A stretch of 32,000 nucleotides of DNA from Thermococcus kodakarensis KOD1 (GCF_000009965.1 NC_006624.1:1350001-1382000), one strand, 5' to 3'. Numbered from the stretch's first letter, positions 8,291-23,850 are shown. The notes: a model not told the origin generated them from the sequence alone. A program made the numbers and translations.

Positions 8291-8380
8291 TAACCCCCAC
8301 TCGGTCGGTGAATGGGGGTCTTAAAAACACTTCTCTCTTTACTTCTTTTGAAAGCCTCGCCGTTCACGGCGGGGAGAAGG

Positions 8381-10642
8381 TCAGCTTGATTCGTTTATCA
8401 CCACCTTTAACCTGCGTCTCCAGAAGAACTCGACCAAGAGGTACGCGAGGACAACCACCCACCCGATTGCAGAATACGCCCTAAGGCGCATAAACGGGTC
8501 GCGGAACTCGGCGTCCACCGTGGATTTCCCCGAGACAGTAATCAGCGTAAGCCCCGTGCGGTCGTCCCTAATTGGTTCCACAAGCTTTCCGTTCACCCTA
8601 ATTTTCCAGTGGGGGTAGTAGCTCTCGGATATCCGCACAAGCATCGGTCTCGACGGTGAGAGTCCAAGCGAGTACTCACCGTCCGATCTGGAAAAGAGCG
8701 TGTAGTTCAGGCTTCCATCGATCCCTGCGAGGCCGAAGATCAACTCCGCCTCCTTCTTTGAGTTCCAGTAGAGGCTGTGGTACAGGAGGTTGCCCCCAAC
8801 GAGGTAGAGGGTGCCGTTTCCAAGCTTCACCAAACCGATTATAGCCTTATCCCCAACCGAGAGGAGCGGCGTCACGTTCTCAAAGACGGGACCGTACCAG
8901 GGCATTCCCTCGTACTCGAAGGGGGCAAAGATCGAGACGTTGAAGACATCAGAGCTTAGGCGAGAATTATCAATGCGCTCCATTACGCCGCACACACCAA
9001 AGAGGCATCCGCTCCCCTCGGGAACCCATACGACCGTACCGCCGTTCCTCACGAAGTTCCAGAGAAGACCCTCCTCTTCCTTTGACGGGTTTCCAGCGTA
9101 AACAACGCCAACGGAACCTGGTGGAATCGCAGCAAGGTTAGACGGATCCTCAAAGTAGGCGTAGTCCACCGGGAGGTCATAGAAGTTTCCAAGGAGCACT
9201 GCCCCAACGGGTTCAACGAAACTGACGTTGGAGGTGTAGATCCAATAGTTACCTATCCTCTCAATCCGAGAATAGTCTTTCACAGTGACGTTGATGGACG
9301 CCATCAAAAACTTCGCAGCGTAGATCTTGAGGTATAAGGATGCATCATTACCAGTGGACAGAGCATACCACATCCTAAGGTGTCCCTCTTCTGCGGGATC
9401 CCCCTCGTGGTACCATCCGTTTAGAGTAGATTTACCCGTAAGAACGGGCAGGTAGCTATGGTGTGAAACACCCGGATGCACTACAAACCTCCAATCTTCC
9501 CCTGGCTGTTCGCGGAGGAACTCGGCGACCTCCATCAAGTCCCCGGGATAAGGCGGGATGGGCTCGGCATAGGGCAGTGCACCGAAGATCAAAATGCCCA
9601 CAGATAAGGCTCCAGCAACGAGCCTCCACTTAAGTTCTACTCCCGTTAAGGCGTCGGCAACGATGAGGGGAACCAGCAGGTTGACCATGTCCATCCATCT
9701 ATACTGGGGTATCATCGAGAGAACCGGAAGGGAATGAATCCATGGGGTCGGCGAGTAGTACCCGAGCGCGAGGTAGATATAAAGTGCGATGAGGCCAAGG
9801 GTGCGGCGCTGGAGAGTCCCCCTGAAATAAGCAACGATAAGGAACGCTGAAAAGACGGCGGTTGATGCTATCCCCACCGGCTCAAGAAAGCGCGAAGGCG
9901 ACACGCTGTAACTCTTGAAGAGCCAAGAATACTGGTATATCTTCCAAAAGTTTGTCCATTCTCTCTCTAAGAGGAATGGGACGTACCAAAAAGATGTAAG
10001 TGCCACGACGATTCCGCCGACCTTGAAAAAGTTTGAGAGAACGCGGGTTTTCCTGAAGTTTTCAAAGAGCAGTACGAGACCAGTGATAACGAGCGGAACC
10101 ATGGCCGAGTGATGGATCAAAGAGATAACCGAGATCGCCACGGCGGATGCCGCCAGGTACCTTTCACGAATGTCAACCGCCCAGAGAAGTGCGAGAAGAA
10201 AGAGGGGAAACAGGTTTATTGAGTTGGCCCTCGGAAAGTTGGCCTCGATATATGCAACTCCAAGGTGCCAGGGAAAGAGCAGAAAAACAACGGGAGCAAC
10301 GTACGGCTCGCGTCCGGTCCTCCTCAGGTAGAAGTGTAGCGCGACAGCACCCACGAACGAGGTCAGCATCAGGGTTGCGGCGTATCCCCTTATATCGCTC
10401 CCGAGCAAGATGCCAAGGAAAGCCCCTATGAGGTACGACAGGGGAGGATAAAATCTGAGGAACGGAAAGCCTGAGTACCAGTCTTCAATCCACGGCTCCC
10501 ACCCATCGCTCATGAGCTTGTGTATCTTGAATAGATGACCGTTGCCGTCCGTATTGAGGGCCGGGGGAGACGGAGCAGTGAACAGCGGGAGGTATAAGAG
10601 CACCGCAATTACCGCCAGAAGGATGAAGTAGGCTCTCCTCAA
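8381..10642 (-). CDS. Polytopic membrane protein with GT-C-like architecture (N-terminal multi-TM domain, large extracytoplasmic domain, C-terminal TM anchor)
   Basis: 753 aa. TTG start at 10640-10642 with GGAGGG SD 7 nt upstream, overlapping the upstream stop (TTGA). ~11-13 TM helices in residues 1-360. First loop is TDGNGHLFKIHKLMSDGWEPWIEDWYSGFPFLRFYPPL. Soluble part carries several NxS/T sequons. Last helix is AIGWVVVLAYLLVEFFW. Confidence 0.8.
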   Translation of the reverse strand: MRRAYFILLAVIAVLLYLPLFTAPSPPALNTDGNGHLFKIHKLMSDGWEPWIEDWYSGFPFLRFYPPLSYLIGAFLGILLGSDIRGYAATLMLTSFVGAVALHFYLRRTGREPYVAPVVFLLFPWHLGVAYIEANFPRANSINLFPLFLLALLWAVDIRERYLAASAVAISVISLIHHSAMVPLVITGLVLLFENFRKTRVLSNFFKVGGIVVALTSFWYVPFLLEREWTNFWKIYQYSWLFKSYSVSPSRFLEPVGIASTAVFSAFLIVAYFRGTLQRRTLGLIALYIYLALGYYSPTPWIHSLPVLSMIPQYRWMDMVNLLVPLIVADALTGVELKWRLVAGALSVGILIFGALPYAEPIPPYPGDLMEVAEFLREQPGEDWRFVVHPGVSHHSYLPVLTGKSTLNGWYHEGDPAEEGHLRMWYALSTGNDASLYLKIYAAKFLMASINVTVKDYSRIERIGNYWIYTSNVSFVEPVGAVLLGNFYDLPVDYAYFEDPSNLAAIPPGSVGVVYAGNPSKEEEGLLWNFVRNGGTVVWVPEGSGCLFGVCGVMERIDNSRLSSDVFNVSIFAPFEYEGMPWYGPVFENVTPLLSVGDKAIIGLVKLGNGTLYLVGGNLLYHSLYWNSKKEAELIFGLAGIDGSLNYTLFSRSDGEYSLGLSPSRPMLVRISESYYPHWKIRVNGKLVEPIRDDRTGLTLITVSGKSTVDAEFRDPFMRLRAYSAIGWVVVLAYLLVEFFWRRRLKVVINESS

Positions 10643-17296: not shown

Positions 17297-18421
17297 ATGG
17301 AGATACTGCTCCTCATAGCCATAATGCTCGCAACGGCAAAGGTGATGGGCTACCTCTTCGAGAGGATCGGCCAGCCCGTCGTTCTGGGCCAGATATTCGG
17401 GGGTCTGTTAATCGGCATCTTCTTCGAAACTAACCCGGTCATCGCCCAATTCTCCAACCTCGGTGTCCTGCTCCTCCTGTTCATGGCCGGCCTCGAGAGC
17501 GAGCTCGAGGAGTTCAAGCGCGTCGGAAAGCAGAGCGTCTTCGTTGCTGGAGTAGGTGTCATAGTTGCATTTCTCTTTGGATTCGGCGTTGCATACTTCT
17601 TTGTGCCGTTCCATGAGGCGGTTCTCTACGGTGCATTGATGACGCCTACGAGTGTGAGCATAACCGTCAAAGTCCTAATGGAGCTGAGGAAGCTGAACAC
17701 GCGCGAGGGGACGACGATTCTCGCTGCTGCCGTCGTTGACGATGTTCTTGGAATCCTCGTGCTCACCGTCGCGATATCAATGATTAAGGGAGGTTCGGTT
17801 AATTATTCTAGCTTGGCAGAGGTGCTCATCTCAGTTTCCCTTCTCCTGTTCTTCTTCCTCTACTTCGGCCCGGAGATTGCAGATAGAGTCTTCCGCTACG
17901 TCTCAAAGATCGACCTCCCCGAGAGCGAGACTGCCTTCGCCCTCGTCTTCCTGATAGTCTTTGCGTACCTCGCCGAGCACCTGAACCTCGCCTCGATCCT
18001 CGGTGCTTACCTCACCGGCCTTGCCCTCGGCCAGATTCCGAAGAAAAAGGCCATCATGGAGCATATGAACGTCCTCGGTTATTCCCTCTTCATCCCGCTC
18101 TTCTTCGTTGAGGTGGGCATGAGGATAGAGTTGTCCTACATCCTCCACGCGGGTCTCTTTGCGGTTCTCTACACCACTGCGGCAATAGTCAGCAAGGTAA
18201 TCGGCTGTGGACTTGGGGCGAGACTTGGCGGCTTCGACTGGGCGGCTTCCCTGAGGATAGGCGTCGGAATGATACCGAGGATGGGTGTCGAGCTGGCTAT
18301 GCTGGCCGTTGCGATGTCGAGCGGCGTAATAAGCGGCGATGCCCTTACTGTGGCAATCCTGATGATCTTCACGACGACGATAATAACGCCTCCACTCCTC
18401 AAGTGGCTCTACTCAAGGTAG
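17297..18421 (+). CDS. CPA2-family monovalent cation:proton antiporter, copy 2 (tandem paralog)
   Basis: 374 aa. Same blocks as copy 1 (LAGLES.LEEFKRVG, TTILAAAVVDDVLGI, IPRM.VEL). SD GAGGCGGT lies upstream of the ATG. Confidence 0.88.
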   Translation: MEILLLIAIMLATAKVMGYLFERIGQPVVLGQIFGGLLIGIFFETNPVIAQFSNLGVLLLLFMAGLESELEEFKRVGKQSVFVAGVGVIVAFLFGFGVAYFFVPFHEAVLYGALMTPTSVSITVKVLMELRKLNTREGTTILAAAVVDDVLGILVLTVAISMIKGGSVNYSSLAEVLISVSLLLFFFLYFGPEIADRVFRYVSKIDLPESETAFALVFLIVFAYLAEHLNLASILGAYLTGLALGQIPKKKAIMEHMNVLGYSLFIPLFFVEVGMRIELSYILHAGLFAVLYTTAAIVSKVIGCGLGARLGGFDWAASLRIGVGMIPRMGVELAMLAVAMSSGVISGDALTVAILMIFTTTIITPPLLKWLYSR

Positions 18422-18475
18422 CTCAGACAACCGAGTGCTCATCACTGATCAGCCAGTGCCGGTGTCATCATAGCA
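18421..18475 (-). ncRNA. C/D box sRNA (2'-O-methylation guide)
   Basis: Minus strand reads gcu-AUGAUGA-CACCGGCACUGG-CUGA-uca-GUGAUGA-GCACUCGGUUGU-CUGA-gc. C box is at 18465-18471, D' at 18449-18452, C' at 18439-18445 and D at 18423-18426. Both spacers are exactly 12 nt with a 3-nt loop. It sits in the spacer between the antiporter stop and the MarC-like gene promoter. Confidence 0.85.
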
Positions 18476-20566: not shown

Positions 20567-21517
20567 TCAGGGACCCCTAACACTCCAGAAGTAGTTGATC
20601 ACCTCCTCCGCGAGCTGTTTGGAGATTATCTTAACGCTAACCTCGTGGTTCCAGTGGAGGGCGGATTCACTCCAGTTGTGGCTTCCAAGGAAGACTATCC
20701 TGCCGTCGACAACGACAATCTTGGCGTGGAGGGTCGTTGATGGGGAGTCGTATGAAACGTCGATTCCATTGGACTTAAGGTAGTTATACGCTTCCCTGTT
20801 GGTATCTAGGCTGTTCTCCAGAAGAATGTGGACCTCAACGCCGCGGCGTCTGGCGCGGATCAGTGCGTTTATCAAATCGTTGGCCTCGTCCGACCAGTCG
20901 TCTGGGTCGTAGAGCATCGAGAACATCATTACGTATATTTCCTGCGTTGCGCCATCAATTGCCTCAATCGCCTCCTCGTAGTAATCACGCTCTATGAGGA
21001 GTTCAACACTTCCATCGGTGTAAGTCCTGTTGAGGACGTCATAGGTTTCATTGAGCTTCAGTCGGCACTCTTCCAGCTCCGAAGAAAGCTGGTCAGAGGT
21101 TACCCTACACTCCTTGAGCTCCTCTTGAGCGCTTTCAAGCTCTTTCTGGCAGTTCTCAAGTTTCAAACTGGTCGAGTTGCAGGTTGAGAGATGAGCCAGA
21201 CACCCATTATACTCAGAAGTCAGGACGGCCAACCTGCTCTGGGTAACGTTGAGCGAATACTTCAAAAGGGAGGCGTTGCTGCGGCACTCCCTCAGGCTCG
21301 CGTTCAAAAGCTCTACCTTAGTTTTGAGGTCGGAGAGCTCTTTACTAAGATCGCTTGAGACGTTGCGGACACACTTTTCTTCCGAAACGGTTGCTACCGT
21401 GGTCCTTGATGCGGGTGAATAGTTAGAGGAGTTAGAATGAGTTCCAGGACTAGGGGTGCCCAAGCATCCAGCCGCTACCAAAACCAGCACCATCAAAACT
21501 GAAATTATTCCCCTCAT
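20567..21517 (-). CDS. Secreted/lipid-anchored single-HKD phospholipase D-superfamily protein with cysteine-rich coiled-coil stalk
   Basis: 316 aa. Signal peptide with lipobox-like LVAAGC (Cys18). Residues ~45-165 are heptad-like with 8 Cys and many NxS/T sequons. One HKD motif HAKIVVVDGRIVFLGSHNWSESA (nt ~20675-20728). Confidence 0.85.
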   Translation of the reverse strand: MRGIISVLMVLVLVAAGCLGTPSPGTHSNSSNYSPASRTTVATVSEEKCVRNVSSDLSKELSDLKTKVELLNASLRECRSNASLLKYSLNVTQSRLAVLTSEYNGCLAHLSTCNSTSLKLENCQKELESAQEELKECRVTSDQLSSELEECRLKLNETYDVLNRTYTDGSVELLIERDYYEEAIEAIDGATQEIYVMMFSMLYDPDDWSDEANDLINALIRARRRGVEVHILLENSLDTNREAYNYLKSNGIDVSYDSPSTTLHAKIVVVDGRIVFLGSHNWSESALHWNHEVSVKIISKQLAEEVINYFWSVRGP

Positions 21518-21560
21518 AATGGGTCACTGCGGAAGAACTAGCTTAAAAGTATTTTTGTAG

Positions 21561-21677
21561 TCAGAGCTTCACCTTAAACTCCTTTGCCCTCCTTTTCATC
21601 CTCCAGGCTTCTAACTTTCTCACGAATGGACACCTTGAGCGCCATTTCAGGTAGAGGACTTTAAGTCTGCTCTTCAT
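21561..21677 (-). CDS. Possible 38-aa highly basic small protein (below the track's size cutoff)
   Basis: ATG (complement of 21675-21677) is preceded by GGTGGT with 4-nt spacing. Translation is MKSRLKVLYLKWRSRCPFVRKLEAWRMKRRAKEFKVKL*. Codons are typical of neighbouring genes. No homology recognised. Confidence 0.3.
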   Translation of the reverse strand: MKSRLKVLYLKWRSRCPFVRKLEAWRMKRRAKEFKVKL

Positions 21678-21728
21678 TCCGACCACCAGGTTTTTATTCA
21701 TGGAAAGGTTTAAGCCATTAACGGTTTA

Positions 21729-21785
21729 CGGGATGATGAGTCTGGAGCCCCCTGAGAGGTGAAGAGGTTTCGCGGGGCTGACCGG
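21729..21785 (+). ncRNA. C/D box sRNA (2'-O-methylation guide), immediately 5' of the 92-aa ORF
   Basis: cggg-AUGAUGA(21733-21739)-GUCUGGAGCCCC-CUGA(21752-21755)-gag-GUGAAGA(21759-21765)-GGUUUCGCGGGG-CUGA(21778-21781)-ccgg. Both spacers are 12 nt with a 3-nt loop. C' is slightly degenerate (UGAAGA). TTTTTATT (21691-21698) is a possible TATA. Confidence 0.78.
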
Positions 21786-21786
21786 C

Positions 21787-22065
21787 ATGATAAAAAGAAA
21801 GCTCTGCAGGGAGTACGTTGAGGAGATAGAGAGGCTTGAACGCTCAATAGTAGAGTTAGAAGAGCAGATAAACGAGCTGAAGATGCAGCTCCGCCTTAAA
21901 GTAGAGGAAGCCAACAGCCTCGCGATAGAGAACACGAGCCTCAGGCACAAACTTGACATGATGAAGAAAAGGGAAAAGTACCTCATTGAACTTCTCAAGA
22001 AATTTGGAGTCCCCTTTGTCATCGTTGACGAAGACGAGTTCGAGGACGTGGATATATCAGAATGA
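21787..22065 (+). CDS. Small coiled-coil protein with acidic C-terminus (92 aa), function unknown
   Basis: The heptad-rich sequence EEIERLERSIVELEEQINELKMQLRLKVEEANSLAIENTSLRHKLDMMKKREKYLIELLKK followed by VDEDEFEDVDISE looks protein-like. The ATG lies 5 nt after the sRNA D box. An antisense ORF (21726-22022) is a low-complexity artefact. Confidence 0.55.
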   Translation: MIKRKLCREYVEEIERLERSIVELEEQINELKMQLRLKVEEANSLAIENTSLRHKLDMMKKREKYLIELLKKFGVPFVIVDEDEFEDVDISE

Positions 22066-22261
22066 ACCGATGATACGTTTTGCTCAAAAGCTCTTGAGAC
22101 TATATCAGCTTCGATGATTCTCCAGTAGCAGAGTCAAACGGTTTGTGGTACCAAGATCGGTTTTCATAAACATCAACATCGGACAATATAACCAAGCCAT
22201 ATCCTCAGACAGTAAATTTTTTATGAAAATGTGCTTATCTTATAACTAAGGTGGTTAGTAA

Positions 22262-23692
22262 GTGTTGGGGCGGAAGAGGGTTCTAGTGATGCTCTTGATA
22301 ACGATCATTGGCGTAAGCATCGTCTCACTAGTAGTTGCGATAACCTGGAGACTTAGCGAGGAGGAACCCCTCCGAATCTTTGGTTATGATGTTTACAAGT
22401 TTGAAGGCTCGGGCCACTACGCCATCTTCTACCCAATGCCAGACGGGACAATAAAACTCCTAAAAACCGGAAAAATCGGAATCTTCCCAACTTTTGTCAA
22501 GGTTCCCAGAAACGCGTGGCTAAAAGAGTACGCTAACAGAGAAAACACGCTAAAAGCCATGCCAACCCCGATAGTGATATTCGTGAACGATAAAGGATTG
22601 GGAATAGCAAGCCTCAAAGGAAGCAAAGTAAAACTCAAAGAACTAGAAATCCCGGAGATCTCAAAAATTACCACTGCATCAGCCCACTCCTGTCCCAAGG
22701 ATTACATCCCCGAAGGATACCGCTACTGCATCCCAAAAAACCCCGAAAGAAACTGGATTAGAGTGATCACCTCAAAAACTGTAACAGAAAAAATATCCTT
22801 CCTCGGACTCAGAATAGACAACCACGTCCTAAAAGACATAGACTTCGATATGAGGCTATTCCTAAGCGAAGCCACGTACTCGCACTGGACCGCTGGCATC
22901 GACGTCGGACCAGTAACACTCACCACGACAAAATTCGGGGAGAGCTTCAAAGGAAAGGGCCTGAAGCTGGAGTACACCACCCCCCGCGAAGTCAATCCTC
23001 AAAGCTCTATGTGGTCTCGTTATGTGAATCTGGACGTCAAGTATGTGGTTACCGTATATGGTGTTCTCGCCTATGACCGTTATACTGGTAAATATACTGA
23101 AATGCCATTAATCCTCACTTACCCACTCGAAATACTCACCACGGGCAGCTACAAAATCTACGAAACCCCGGACGGCAGTCAAAAGTATGTTGAGTCCAAG
23201 CCGGGATCAACGTTCTACACTCCAAGCATAACCAGAGAACCGCACTATCTAGAGATTCCTGGCTCTGCAGATTCAGAGAGGATATTGATAAATCAAGGGG
23301 ACGGTAGGGGGCTCATAATTGACGAGTGGCTCAACGAAAGCTGGCACCTTTCGAGTGAGTCTAGCTTTTCAATACCGATAGGGCCGGCCGCGGTTAAGGC
23401 CCTGGAAAAAGAGGGAGTACTGAAGAAATACCCGCAAGTCCGCAGAATCCTAAACAGCATATCACTAACCATCGGATTCCACAAAACAGCAAACCAAAGG
23501 TCAATGCTGATTTACCGCCTGCAGGCGACTCCGCGGGAGGACTGCTATGCCTTAAGGTACTATCAAAAACTGGACGTTGCCGAGGACTACAATAAGGTGA
23601 AAGTGCCAATGTTCCTGGTTACAGTGACGAATGGAAAATCACCCGGGTTCTGCGACCCGAGAACAGGCCTCTGCACAACCAGCACTGGATAA
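22262..23692 (+). CDS. Orphan N-terminally membrane-anchored/secreted protein (476 aa)
   Basis: GTG 22262 lies 7 nt after AAGGTGG. N-terminal TM VLVMLLITIIGVSIVSLVVAI. The remainder is beta-rich and soluble with two Cys pairs (CPKDYIPEGYRYC; CDPRTGLC). No motif recognised. A/T-rich codons. Confidence 0.7.
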   Translation: MLGRKRVLVMLLITIIGVSIVSLVVAITWRLSEEEPLRIFGYDVYKFEGSGHYAIFYPMPDGTIKLLKTGKIGIFPTFVKVPRNAWLKEYANRENTLKAMPTPIVIFVNDKGLGIASLKGSKVKLKELEIPEISKITTASAHSCPKDYIPEGYRYCIPKNPERNWIRVITSKTVTEKISFLGLRIDNHVLKDIDFDMRLFLSEATYSHWTAGIDVGPVTLTTTKFGESFKGKGLKLEYTTPREVNPQSSMWSRYVNLDVKYVVTVYGVLAYDRYTGKYTEMPLILTYPLEILTTGSYKIYETPDGSQKYVESKPGSTFYTPSITREPHYLEIPGSADSERILINQGDGRGLIIDEWLNESWHLSSESSFSIPIGPAAVKALEKEGVLKKYPQVRRILNSISLTIGFHKTANQRSMLIYRLQATPREDCYALRYYQKLDVAEDYNKVKVPMFLVTVTNGKSPGFCDPRTGLCTTSTG

Positions 23693-23850
23693 TCAAGAAG
23701 CAGGCCAATGTGGCATTGTTTTCTGTTTTTATCCTTCTATACCTCGCCTGTTCTTTCTTCCTATGCACCTCAAGTTTCAGCCAGCCGGAACGGAAACCTT
23801 AATTAACTCCCCCTCTTTTTTAGGTTCAGCTAAATGAACGGGTGATGCTT

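What the first reader, a model, noticed from the sequence alone, without database searches (positions are those of the whole stretch)
21729..21790. Second C/D box sRNA whose D box ends 5 nt before the start codon of a coiled-coil ORF
Plus strand: AUGAUGA-GUCUGGAGCCCC-CUGA-GAG-GUGAAGA-GGUUUCGCGGGG-CUGA-CCGGC-AUG. The box spacing is again 12/3/12, and C' is slightly degenerate. Predicted targets contain 5'-GGGGCUCCAGAC-3' and 5'-CCCCGCGAAACC-3'. The sRNA occupies the whole would-be 5' UTR and RBS of ORF 21787-22065. Either the ORF is translated from an sRNA-containing leader, where RNP assembly could gate translation, or the sRNA is processed out of the mRNA, or the ORF is not real. It lies in the low-GC islet, back-to-back with a possible 38-codon ORF.
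Basis: seen in the sequence. Interest (0 to 1): 0.6.

Follow-up and report, generated by a model that had tools for sequence, protein, structure and literature searches.

The report
Known tRNA-Trp guide sRNA leading TK1565
This is an already catalogued small methylation-guide RNA of Thermococcus kodakarensis (Rfam sR23, Tko-sR50) that most likely directs ribose methylation of tryptophan tRNA. It is transcribed as the leader of a real, conserved 92-residue coiled-coil protein gene, an arrangement noted in print but kept across almost the whole family.

Summary
Window 21733-21781 (+) is a textbook C/D box sRNA with 12/3/12 spacing, and its D box ends 5 nt before the ATG of ORF 21787-22065. It is not new:
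- Rfam RF01138 (sR23) scores 74.8 bits, E 1.4e-16.
- The genome is T. kodakarensis KOD1, where this RNA is published as Tko-sR50 / sR46. The published data give a TSS at 21720, 176,232 small-RNA reads and a circular form spanning 21729-21790.
- It is listed as the 5' part of the TK1565 transcript.

What I add:
- The D' guide pairs with 10-11 Watson-Crick bp to tRNA-Trp, which puts the methylated base at C32.
- The D guide most likely pairs with tRNA-Trp 39-46, putting it at G42. That pairing is weak on its own but fits how the guide varies between genera.
- The ORF is real. It shows a coding substitution pattern, occurs in 57 of 61 genomes and is restricted to Thermococcales.
- 50 of 61 Thermococcaceae genomes keep the ORF start within 12 nt of the D box.
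- The mature circular sRNA includes the whole AUG.

The scan also noted an sRNA with matching guides in another genome, probably the orthologue (e1-2642641). Interest is low to moderate.

The parts
21691..21698 (+). TATA-like box (TTTTTATT) of the sRNA/TK1565 promoter
   Evidence: Sequence. Its centre lies about 25 nt upstream of the published TSS, matching the median TATA-TSS distance of 23 nt reported for T. kodakarensis (PMC4247193). A/T-rich boxes sit at the same distance in the orthologous loci.
21720..21720 (+). Primary transcription start site (genome 1371720)
   Evidence: Literature only: PMC4247193 supplementary file 8 lists 'TTS1371720_+ ... Tko-sR50', and PMC9014305 Table 1 repeats it. 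Not testable from sequence.
21729..21790 (+). Mature and circularised C/D box sRNA (Rfam sR23 = Tko-sR50 = sR46), 62 nt. Ends 21728-21789 are equally compatible.
   Evidence: Rfam hit at 21731-21783, 74.8 bits. The circular junction is 1371729-1371790 (+/-5 nt), with 176,232 small-RNA reads and 188 circular reads in wild type against 3 in the rnl knockout (PMC9014305). The flank lengths fit the genome-wide 5+8 nt pattern.
21733..21739 (+). C box AUGAUGA
   Evidence: It reads ATGATGA in 56 of the 57 orthologues recovered and GTGATGA in G001, still within the RUGAUGA consensus.
21740..21751 (+). D' guide GUCUGGAGCCCC. Pairs with tRNA-Trp G29-A38 (and C39 in the spliced tRNA); the N+5 base is C32.
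   Evidence: 10 Watson-Crick bp with the pre-tRNA and 11 with the spliced tRNA. Only 50 of 5000 shuffled guides do as well. Guide positions 2-11 are invariant in 56 of 57 genomes, while the two outermost positions, 1 and 12, vary.
21752..21755 (+). D' box CUGA
21759..21765 (+). C' box GUGAAGA (fifth position degenerate: A/G/U/C among orthologues)
21766..21777 (+). D guide GGUUUCGCGGGG. Most likely pairs with tRNA-Trp C39-A46; the N+5 base is G42.
   Evidence: 8 contiguous pairs (7 WC + 1 G-U). Not significant alone: 827 of 5000 shuffles reach it. However, the guide variants in other genera (C/U at position 7, U/C at 8, U/G at 10) keep at least 8 pairs with the invariant tRNA-Trp sequence in 15 of 17 variants, and they lose the rival rRNA sites.
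21778..21781 (+). D box CUGA
21782..21786 (+). 5-nt spacer CCGGC. Its first 2-3 nt form the GG/CC terminal clamp of the sRNA. It holds no Shine-Dalgarno sequence.
   Evidence: CCGNN is conserved in length across the two Thermococcus-like genera. The strongest anti-SD match in the leader lies at -31, inside the D'/C' region.
21787..22065 (+). TK1565: 92-aa coiled-coil protein specific to Thermococcales, function unknown
   Evidence: Annotated in NC_006624.1. Found in 57 of 61 family genomes. Coding substitution pattern. All named homologues are Thermococcus or Pyrococcus. No Pfam family above its cut-off. The AlphaFold2 model is one helix, residues 2-73, mean pLDDT 90.5.

Best explanation
Window 21729-21790 encodes the T. 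kodakarensis orthologue of Pyrococcus sR23 (published as Tko-sR50 / sR46). It is a canonical double-guide box C/D sRNA.

Guide function. Like other archaeal C/D sRNAs, it should assemble with L7Ae, Nop5 and fibrillarin. Its D' guide would then place the methyltransferase on C32 of tRNA-Trp. Its D guide most likely places it on G42 of the same tRNA, so the two guides clamp the two strands of the anticodon stem.

Transcript. The sRNA has its own TATA box and its TSS at 21720. There is no terminator behind it, and the same transcript runs on into TK1565, a real coiled-coil protein gene conserved across Thermococcales whose AUG starts 5 nt after the D box.

Coupling. Mature sRNA ends follow the general rule seen in this organism, about 5 nt before the C box and 8 nt after the D box. 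The stable, Rnl-circularised sRNA therefore contains the AUG. A given primary transcript is thus either translated while still unprocessed or trimmed down to the sRNP. An assembled sRNP should also occlude the start codon.

Status of each step:
- Shown here or in cited papers: the identity of the sRNA, its expression, its ends, co-transcription with TK1565, conservation of both parts, and the reality of the ORF.
- Inferred: the tRNA targets, and the competition between sRNP assembly and translation initiation.
For: Identity. RF01138 scores 74.8 bits, E 1.4e-16, with a single copy in the genome. It is found in 60 of 61 Thermococcaceae genomes across six genera.

Expression and ends. PMC9014305 Table 1 gives sR46 at 1371729-1371790, 176,232 reads, and circular reads that depend on Rnl. 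PMC4247193 gives TSS 1371720 and the entry 'Tko-sR50 + hypothetical protein' for TK1565.

D' target. There are 10-11 contiguous WC bp with tRNA-Trp, and N+5 falls on C32. Only 50 of 5000 shuffled guides match as well. The tRNA-Trp anticodon stem-loop is identical in 49 of the 50 tRNA-Trp genes recovered; the exception, G049, lacks two stem bases outside the paired segment. The paired guide positions 2-11 are invariant in 56 of 57 genomes, and only the two outermost positions, 1 and 12, vary. PMC7668247 states that P. furiosus tRNA-Trp C32 is a predicted fibrillarin-C/D target.

D target. Guide variants across genera keep at least 8 pairs with tRNA-Trp 38-48 in 15 of 17 variants, and they lose the 16S and 23S alternatives.

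ORF. Present in 57 of 61 genomes. Codon-position differences are 0.31/0.19/0.59. 17 columns of the 30-sequence alignment are invariant.

Coupling. 50 of 61 genomes keep the start codon 4, 5 or 12 nt after the D box. Where the two are uncoupled, the ORF has gained its own signals: a terminator, promoter and GGAGG in G046 and G058, a GGGGAT in G029, and a TATA about 25 nt before the ATG in G012 and G033.

AUG inside the mature sRNA. Most circular C/D sRNAs in this organism carry 5+8 flanking nt. This one fits 4+9 or 5+8.
Against: No methylation, RNP binding or translation was measured here.

The D guide pairing (7 WC + 1 G-U) is not better than chance by complementarity alone. GC-rich T-arm sequences of other tRNAs score about as well.

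The P. furiosus mass-spectrometry survey did not detect the predicted Cm32 in the tRNAs it analysed.

My recollection that Hirata et al. 2019 found m5Cm32 and Gm42 in T. kodakarensis tRNA-Trp could not be checked, because the paper is not held.

Circular-junction coordinates were pooled within +/-5 nt, so a share of 3' ends could lie just before the AUG.

About half of T. kodakarensis mRNAs lack a recognisable RBS anyway, so the missing SD is not in itself unusual.

No protein-level evidence for TK1565 was found; only one held paper mentions it.
Confidence: 0.85

Rival explanations
1. Processing releases a translatable message. An endonuclease cuts between the D box and the AUG. The 5' product becomes the sRNA, and the 3' product is a leaderless or near-leaderless TK1565 mRNA translated by the leaderless pathway.
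For: No SD lies in the 4-5 nt spacer. Two Pyrococcus-type genomes that have uncoupled the ORF (G012, G033) place a TATA box about 25 nt before the ATG, which is a leaderless-type layout. T. kodakarensis uses leaderless mRNAs. ATG is the start codon in 47 of the 49 start codons that could be read among the 54 distinct orthologues. Junctions were pooled within +/-5 nt.
Against: The listed circular junction puts the sRNA 3' end at G or A of AUGA, after the start codon. That matches the generic 8-nt trailer of other sRNAs in the same data set, which points to footprint-limited trimming rather than a site-specific cut before the AUG. In three genera the spacer is 12 nt and carries a GGUG, which is not a leaderless layout.
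Confidence: 0.2
2. Neutral promoter sharing. The ORF simply depends on the sRNA promoter because of genome compaction. It is translated inefficiently from the long leader, and the sRNA is what survives mRNA decay. The tight junction is a frozen accident with no regulatory role.
For: In T. kodakarensis, 11 snoRNAs lie in 5' UTRs and 12 in 5' coding regions (PMC4247193). Other sRNA-ORF pairs exist in this genome. Positions of sRNAs relative to ORFs are described as dynamic in Pyrobaculum. The pair has been uncoupled or the ORF not found in about 10 of 61 genomes, with the sRNA kept. Upstream and downstream synteny varies.
Against: The junction has been kept within 12 nt in all six genera (50 of 61 genomes). 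This holds even though the locus has moved relative to its neighbours. Other sRNA-ORF pairs in this genome carry a clear SD between the D box and the ATG, whereas this one does not. Placing the AUG inside the RNP-protected trailer makes some interference physically hard to avoid.
Confidence: 0.3
3. The D guide, or both guides, act on rRNA rather than tRNA-Trp. Candidates are 16S near index 348 (9 WC bp at guide positions 4-12), 16S index 137 and 23S index 2115.
For: In T. kodakarensis these sites pair with 8-11 WC positions of the D guide. Most archaeal C/D guides target rRNA (PMC7994747).
Against: Each has a mismatch next to the target nucleotide, or starts only one pair before it. The Pyrococcus-type D guides lose these pairings, falling to 6 bp or fewer, while keeping 8 pairs with tRNA-Trp. 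This assumes the conserved rRNA segments do not change. The D' guide has no rRNA match better than 1 mismatch plus 2 G-U.
Confidence: 0.1

Closest known systems
Pyrococcus sR23 (Rfam RF01138); T. kodakarensis Tko-sR50 (Jager et al. 2014) = sR46 (PMC9014305)
   Same: Same gene family and, for Tko-sR50/sR46, the very same locus. It shares the box architecture, 12-nt guides, the D' guide core UCUGGAGCCC and the D guide core GCGG.
   Different: Nothing in kind. The C' box has A at its fifth position. Beware the names: the Pyrococcus 'sR50' in the literature is the tRNA-Trp intron, a different RNA.
tRNA-Trp intron box C/D guide (Cm34/Um39; Clouet d'Orval et al. 2001, cited)
   Same: It is also a C/D guide acting on the anticodon arm of tRNA-Trp. 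The intron with its own C/D boxes is present in this genome.
   Different: That guide sits in cis inside the pre-tRNA and targets positions 34 and 39. The sRNA studied here is a separate trans-acting gene whose predicted sites are 32 and 42.
L7Ae autoregulatory k-turn in the l7ae 5' UTR (Daume et al. 2017, PMC5539422)
   Same: An L7Ae-binding k-turn sits immediately upstream of a start codon, and protein binding is proposed (and, for that case, tested) to repress translation.
   Different: There the element is a minimal k-turn that masks an SD and is not a guide RNA. Here a complete, functional, abundant guide sRNA forms the leader, no SD is masked, and repression is untested.
Sense-strand C/D sRNA genes overlapping or abutting the 5' ends of ORFs (Pyrobaculum, Lui et al. 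2018, PMC6009581; T. kodakarensis Tko-sR04/TK0108 and Tko-sR67/TK2284)
   Same: Co-transcription of an sRNA with an mRNA. The published discussion raises the same ideas: excision from the mRNA, L7Ae/Nop5/fibrillarin interfering with initiation, and the RNP protecting the sRNA from decay.
   Different: In Pyrobaculum, 5' overlaps usually cost the overlapping guide its target and are often not conserved. Here both guides are intact, only the 3' trailer overlaps the AUG, and the junction is kept in 50 of 61 genomes. Tko-sR67/TK2284 has an SD (GGUGGU) between the D box and the ATG; this pair has none.

Membership tests
Archaeal box C/D sRNA (Rfam RF01138 sR23) | Covariance-model score above the curated gathering threshold | tested here: met
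   74.8 bits against a threshold of 45, E 1.4e-16, model positions 1-54 of 54.
Archaeal box C/D sRNA (Rfam RF01138 sR23) | C box RUGAUGA near the 5' end and D box CUGA near the 3' end, with a short terminal clamp able to form the k-turn | tested here: met
   AUGAUGA at 21733-21739; CUGA at 21778-21781; GG before the C box and CC after the D box. Conserved in 57 orthologues.
Archaeal box C/D sRNA (Rfam RF01138 sR23) | Internal D' and C' boxes with about 12-nt guides and a 3-8 nt linker | tested here: met
   CUGA at 21752-21755 and GUGAAGA at 21759-21765, with guides of 12 and 12 nt and a 3-nt linker. The C' box has one deviation, at a position that also varies among orthologues.
Archaeal box C/D sRNA (Rfam RF01138 sR23) | Guide complementary to a stable RNA, with the target base pairing to the fifth nucleotide upstream of D/D' | tested here: met
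   D' guide: 10-11 WC bp with tRNA-Trp, N+5 = C32. The D guide remains inconclusive: 8 pairs with tRNA-Trp, N+5 = G42, supported only by the comparative pattern.
Archaeal box C/D sRNA (Rfam RF01138 sR23) | Accumulates as a discrete small RNA | not testable with these tools
   Literature only: 176,232 small-RNA reads, a 62-nt circular form and a TSS at 1371720 (PMC9014305 and PMC4247193).
Archaeal box C/D sRNA (Rfam RF01138 sR23) | Binds L7Ae/Nop5/fibrillarin and directs 2'-O-methylation at the predicted sites | not testable with these tools
I recall that m5Cm32 and Gm42 were reported in T. kodakarensis tRNA-Trp (Hirata et al. 2019), but I could not open the paper.
Leaderless mRNA (5' UTR of 8 nt or less, as defined in PMC4247193) | Transcript 5' end within 8 nt of the start codon | tested here: not met
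   The published TSS lies 67 nt upstream of the ATG. I see no AT-rich TATA-like stretch about 25 nt before the ATG (reading). The sRNA 3' end maps after the AUG. A processed leaderless species has not been excluded experimentally.
L7Ae/k-turn translational repressor element (l7ae 5' UTR type) | A k-turn overlapping or flanking the ribosome-binding site, such that L7Ae binding lowers translation | tested here: inconclusive
   The C/D k-turn ends 5 nt before the AUG, and the AUG lies within the retained 8-9 nt trailer. No SD is present to be masked, and no binding or reporter assay was run.
YabA / ZapB coiled-coil proteins (names given to TK1565 homologues by some databases) | Pfam score above the gathering cut-off, and for YabA a C-terminal zinc-binding domain | tested here: not met
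   PF06156 scores 26.9 bits against a cut-off of 30, and PF06005 scores 15.3 against 31.5. Both are only generic heptad matches. The model is a single helix with an acidic tail and one conserved Cys.

The most novel reading that the evidence does not exclude
The sRNA-TK1565 junction is a conserved RNP-gated switch. Co-transcriptional assembly of L7Ae/Nop5/fibrillarin on the leader buries the AUG, which lies inside the RNP-protected trailer. TK1565 would then be made only from transcripts that escape assembly. This would tie the level of this Thermococcales-specific coiled-coil protein inversely to the free pool of C/D core proteins. TK1565 might in that case itself act in sRNP or tRNA-Trp biology.
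Probability: 0.15. Interest if true: 0.6.

Novelty: already known. Interest (0 to 1): 0.3.

Why it matters
As a feature it is ordinary. The sRNA, its abundance, its circular form and its co-transcription with TK1565 are all published.

The modest added value is threefold:
- It links a specific guide RNA to two 2'-O-methylations that I recall being reported, without an assigned guide, in the anticodon arm of T. kodakarensis tRNA-Trp (positions 32 and 42). This can be tested with one guide-mutant strain.
- It shows that the sRNA-ORF junction is kept in all six genera of the family sampled, with the start codon inside the mature sRNA. That makes it a clean natural case for asking whether C/D sRNP assembly and translation initiation compete on one transcript. 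The idea has been raised in the literature but not tested.
- It shows that TK1565 is a real, family-specific small protein of unknown function.

Tried and rejected
**Target searches**
- Exact 12-nt targets: none in the genome apart from the gene's own antisense.
- The 1-mismatch genomic sites at 1426949, 1949599 and 1829458: no Rfam family there. They were not pursued as mRNA targets.
- rRNA targets for the D guide (16S index 137 and 348; 23S index 2115 and 2303): each is flawed near N+5 and incompatible with the Pyrococcus-type guide variants.
- A combined WC/G-U shuffle test proved uninformative for these G-rich guides. I replaced it with a WC-only test.

**Other hypotheses checked**
- Covariation between the D' guide and tRNA-Trp: impossible to score, because both are invariant. 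Only the conservation pattern is usable.
- A processed leaderless mRNA as the main route: disfavoured by the circular-junction ends.
- A strong SD in the leader: the only good anti-SD match (GAGGUGA) lies at -31, inside the D'/C' region, too far from the AUG. It reflects the general likeness of GGUGAUGA to an SD.
- Second weak 'sR23' hits in two genera: these are a different sRNA with unrelated guides.
- YabA/ZapB assignment for TK1565: below the cut-offs.
- Fold search of the TK1565 model: not run, because a single long helix gives meaningless matches.
- No complex prediction was attempted.

**Literature**
- Hirata et al. 2019 and Clouet d'Orval et al. 2001 are not held.
- Searches for Gm42 and m5Cm32 found nothing relevant.

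Full report
**1.

The plus strand at 21733-21781 reads as follows:
- C box AUGAUGA
- 12-nt D' guide GUCUGGAGCCCC
- D' box CUGA
- linker GAG
- C' box GUGAAGA
- 12-nt D guide GGUUUCGCGGGG
- D box CUGA

CCGGC follows, and then the ATG of a 92-codon ORF at 21787-22065.

Rfam's model for Pyrococcus sR23 (RF01138) matches 21731-21783 end to end at 74.8 bits. The gathering score is 45 and the E-value 1.4e-16. It is the only such match in the genome.

The surrounding 21300-23850 is indeed lower in G+C, at 0.40-0.50, than the flanking hisS and alaS genes at 0.55-0.59.

**2. It is a published RNA**

The window is positions 1350001-1382000 of a single 2,088,737-bp contig. Supplementary tables of Jager et al. 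2014 name the record NC_006624.1 (T. kodakarensis KOD1). They list TK1564 at 1371561-1371701 (-), TK1565 at 1371787-1372065 (+) and a transcription start 'TTS1371720_+ ... Tko-sR50'.

The main text of that paper lists TK1565 among the most-read genes as 'Tko-sR50 + hypothetical protein'. It states that the sRNA lies in the 5'-terminal region of the transcript. It also notes that 11 snoRNAs lie in 5' UTRs and 12 in 5' coding regions.

The Rnl study (PMC9014305) lists 'sR46, 1371729 to 1371790, 62 nt, alias Tko-sR50'. It reports 176,232 small-RNA reads, with 188 circular-junction reads in wild type against 3 in the ligase knockout. Junctions there were pooled within +/-5 nt.

**3. Targets**

I scanned all tRNAs (ARAGORN, with and without introns) and both rRNAs.

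*D' guide.* It pairs at positions 2-11 with 10 Watson-Crick bp to the intron-containing tRNA-Trp, and with 11 bp to the spliced form. The fifth nucleotide from the D' box faces C32. Only 50 of 5000 shuffled guides reach an 11-bp WC run covering N+5 in the 8.3-kb pool of stable RNAs.

Across the family genomes, the tRNA-Trp anticodon stem-loop (CGCGGGCUCCAGA) is identical in 49 of the 50 tRNA-Trp genes recovered. The exception, G049, lacks two bases of the stem outside the paired segment. The paired guide positions 2-11 are invariant in 56 of 57 genomes. The two outermost positions, 1 and 12, vary.

An independent paper states that C32 of P. furiosus tRNA-Trp is a predicted fibrillarin-C/D target. 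It adds that the modification was not seen in the tRNAs that study analysed.

*D guide.* The best fit is to tRNA-Trp C39-A46, with 7 WC pairs and 1 G-U, placing N+5 at G42. This is not significant on its own, since 827 of 5000 shuffles do as well. GC-rich T-arms of other tRNAs score about the same.

What favours tRNA-Trp is the way the guide varies between genera. Position 7 is C or U and position 8 is U or C, both facing G. Position 10 is U in Thermococcus (a mismatch) but G in the Pyrococcus-like genus, where it pairs with C. So 15 of the 17 variants keep at least 8 pairs with the invariant tRNA. The rival 16S and 23S sites fall to 6 bp or fewer.

The two guides would thus grip the two strands of the same anticodon stem.

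From memory, the abstract of Hirata et al. 2019 reports 5,2'-O-dimethylcytidine at position 32 and 2'-O-methylguanosine at position 42 of T. kodakarensis tRNA-Trp. That would match both predictions. I could not open the paper or find the statement elsewhere, so it stays a lead.

**4. The ORF is real**

- A homologue of TK1565 is found in 57 of 61 Thermococcaceae genomes, in all six genera, at 47-89% identity.
- Pairwise differences per codon position are 0.31, 0.19 and 0.59, the signature of purifying selection on a protein.
- A 30-sequence alignment has 17 invariant columns.
- All database homologues that carry an organism name are Thermococcus or Pyrococcus.
- No Pfam family passes its cut-off; YabA, ZapB and similar names reflect heptad repeats only.
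- AlphaFold2 gives one helix, residues 2-73, at mean pLDDT 90.5, followed by an acidic tail.
- Function is unknown.

**5. The junction is conserved**

The sRNA is present in 60 of 61 genomes. In the one exception, the stretch upstream of the ORF in the locus fetched reads as N.

In 50 of the 61, the ORF starts within 12 nt of the D box. The spacer falls into three types:
- CCGNN (5 nt) in the two Thermococcus-like genera.
- 4 nt (UAUC, UAAC or GAUC) in most of the Pyrococcus-like genus.
- CCGGUGUUNNNN (12 nt, containing GGUG) in three further genera.

Sequence upstream of the promoter is not conserved. Neighbouring genes differ as well, so the pair travels as a unit.

The exceptions are informative:
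- In G046 and G058 the sRNA is followed by a T-run. The ORF then has its own A/T box and a strong GGAGG.
- In G029 the ORF lies on another contig, with GGGGAT seven nt before the ATG.
- In G012 and G033 it lies elsewhere, with a TATA box about 25 nt before the ATG.
- In G010, G020 and G027 the sRNA remains and the ORF was not found.

Each partner can therefore exist alone. When the ORF leaves, it needs new expression signals, which shows that in the common arrangement it depends on the sRNA promoter.

**6. How the pair most likely works**

I see no AT-rich TATA-like stretch about 25 nt before the ATG (reading), and no SD in the spacer. The only strong anti-SD match in the leader lies 31 nt upstream, inside the D'/C' region.

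Other sRNA-ORF pairs in this genome do carry an SD between the D box and the ATG. Examples are GGUGGU before TK2284, and GGGGAGG and GGUGGUGG before two other ORFs.

I compared the published circular-junction coordinates with the box positions. Eight of the 13 sRNAs in which I could locate the boxes carry 5 nt before the C box and 8 nt after the D box. This one is listed as 4+9. Because A21728 and A21790 make the junction ambiguous by one nt, it fits 5+8 (21728-21789) equally well.

Either way the mature sRNA contains the whole AUG. Its ends follow a generic rule, so they look like the limits of RNP protection rather than a site-specific cut.

Two inferences follow:
- A transcript trimmed to the sRNA can no longer encode full-length TK1565. 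This argues against the rival in which processing yields a leaderless mRNA.
- An assembled sRNP should cover the start codon. Translation must therefore come from primary transcripts on which the RNP has not yet formed, or never forms.

It is also an idea already voiced for sense-overlapping sRNAs in Pyrobaculum, and it is related to the tested L7Ae/k-turn repression of the l7ae mRNA.

A weak G-rich tetramer lies 6-9 nt before the AUG in all three layouts: GGGG, GGAG in the Pyrococcus-like genus, and GGUG in the 12-nt spacers. It might serve as a poor SD. That is speculation.

Whether the competition has regulatory meaning or is a tolerated side effect of promoter sharing cannot be decided from sequence.

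**7. Verdict**

The feature is real and correctly described, but already known.

New here:
- Assignment of the D guide to tRNA-Trp G42.
- Family-wide conservation of the junction.
- The point that the start codon lies inside the mature sRNA.

The scan also noted an sRNA with matching guides in another genome, probably the orthologue. Interest is 0.3.

Noticed in passing
window 18420-18475 (-): A second C/D box sRNA. snoPyro_CD scores 43.4 bits, just under the 45-bit cut-off. It corresponds to the published Tko-sR49 with a TSS at 1368474. Its targets were not examined.
   Followed up: partly
window 21561-21701 (-): TK1564 is a 46-aa very basic ORF whose ATG abuts the sRNA promoter's TATA box. 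tblastn finds it at 59-85% identity in several other Thermococcus loci, near the PLD-family gene. It is therefore probably a real small protein rather than noise.
   Followed up: partly
window 8292-8397 (+): A weak match to the HgcC family RNA (RF00062): 30.8 bits against a cut-off of 50, E 0.0016.
   Followed up: no
L140 (G038:C1:1533850-1533960, minus strand): A truncated second copy of the sRNA 5' half (C box plus the complete D' guide, then a T-run). It carries the upstream region that flanks the full-length sRNA in the related genome G008. The full sRNA-ORF unit of G038 sits 19 kb away behind a different upstream sequence. This looks like a relic of the unit having moved.
   Followed up: partly
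L044 (G046) and L041 (G058): In these two Thermococcus genomes the sRNA and the TK1565 homologue are split by 130-160 nt. That stretch holds a T-rich terminator, an A/T box and a strong GGAGG Shine-Dalgarno. These are natural 'uncoupled' controls for any experiment on the junction.
   Followed up: yes
genome 2070055-2070116 (-), outside the window: Tko-sR67 precedes TK2284 with GGUGGUUUCA between the D box and the ATG. Its published circular-junction 3' end falls between that SD and the ATG, 2 nt before the start codon. It is another sRNA-mRNA pair worth comparing.
   Followed up: partly
L083 (genome 1945687-1945826): The tRNA-Trp gene carries the known 62-nt intron with its own C/D boxes. The intron is conserved across the family, with a longer variant in the Pyrococcus-like genera.
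   Followed up: partly
PMC4247193 supplementary file 8: The published table attaches the Rfam name 'sR23' to a different locus (TSS 1257078, TKOcandSno66) and gives none to Tko-sR50. The current RF01138 model matches only the Tko-sR50 locus in this genome. This is a naming inconsistency to keep in mind.
   Followed up: no
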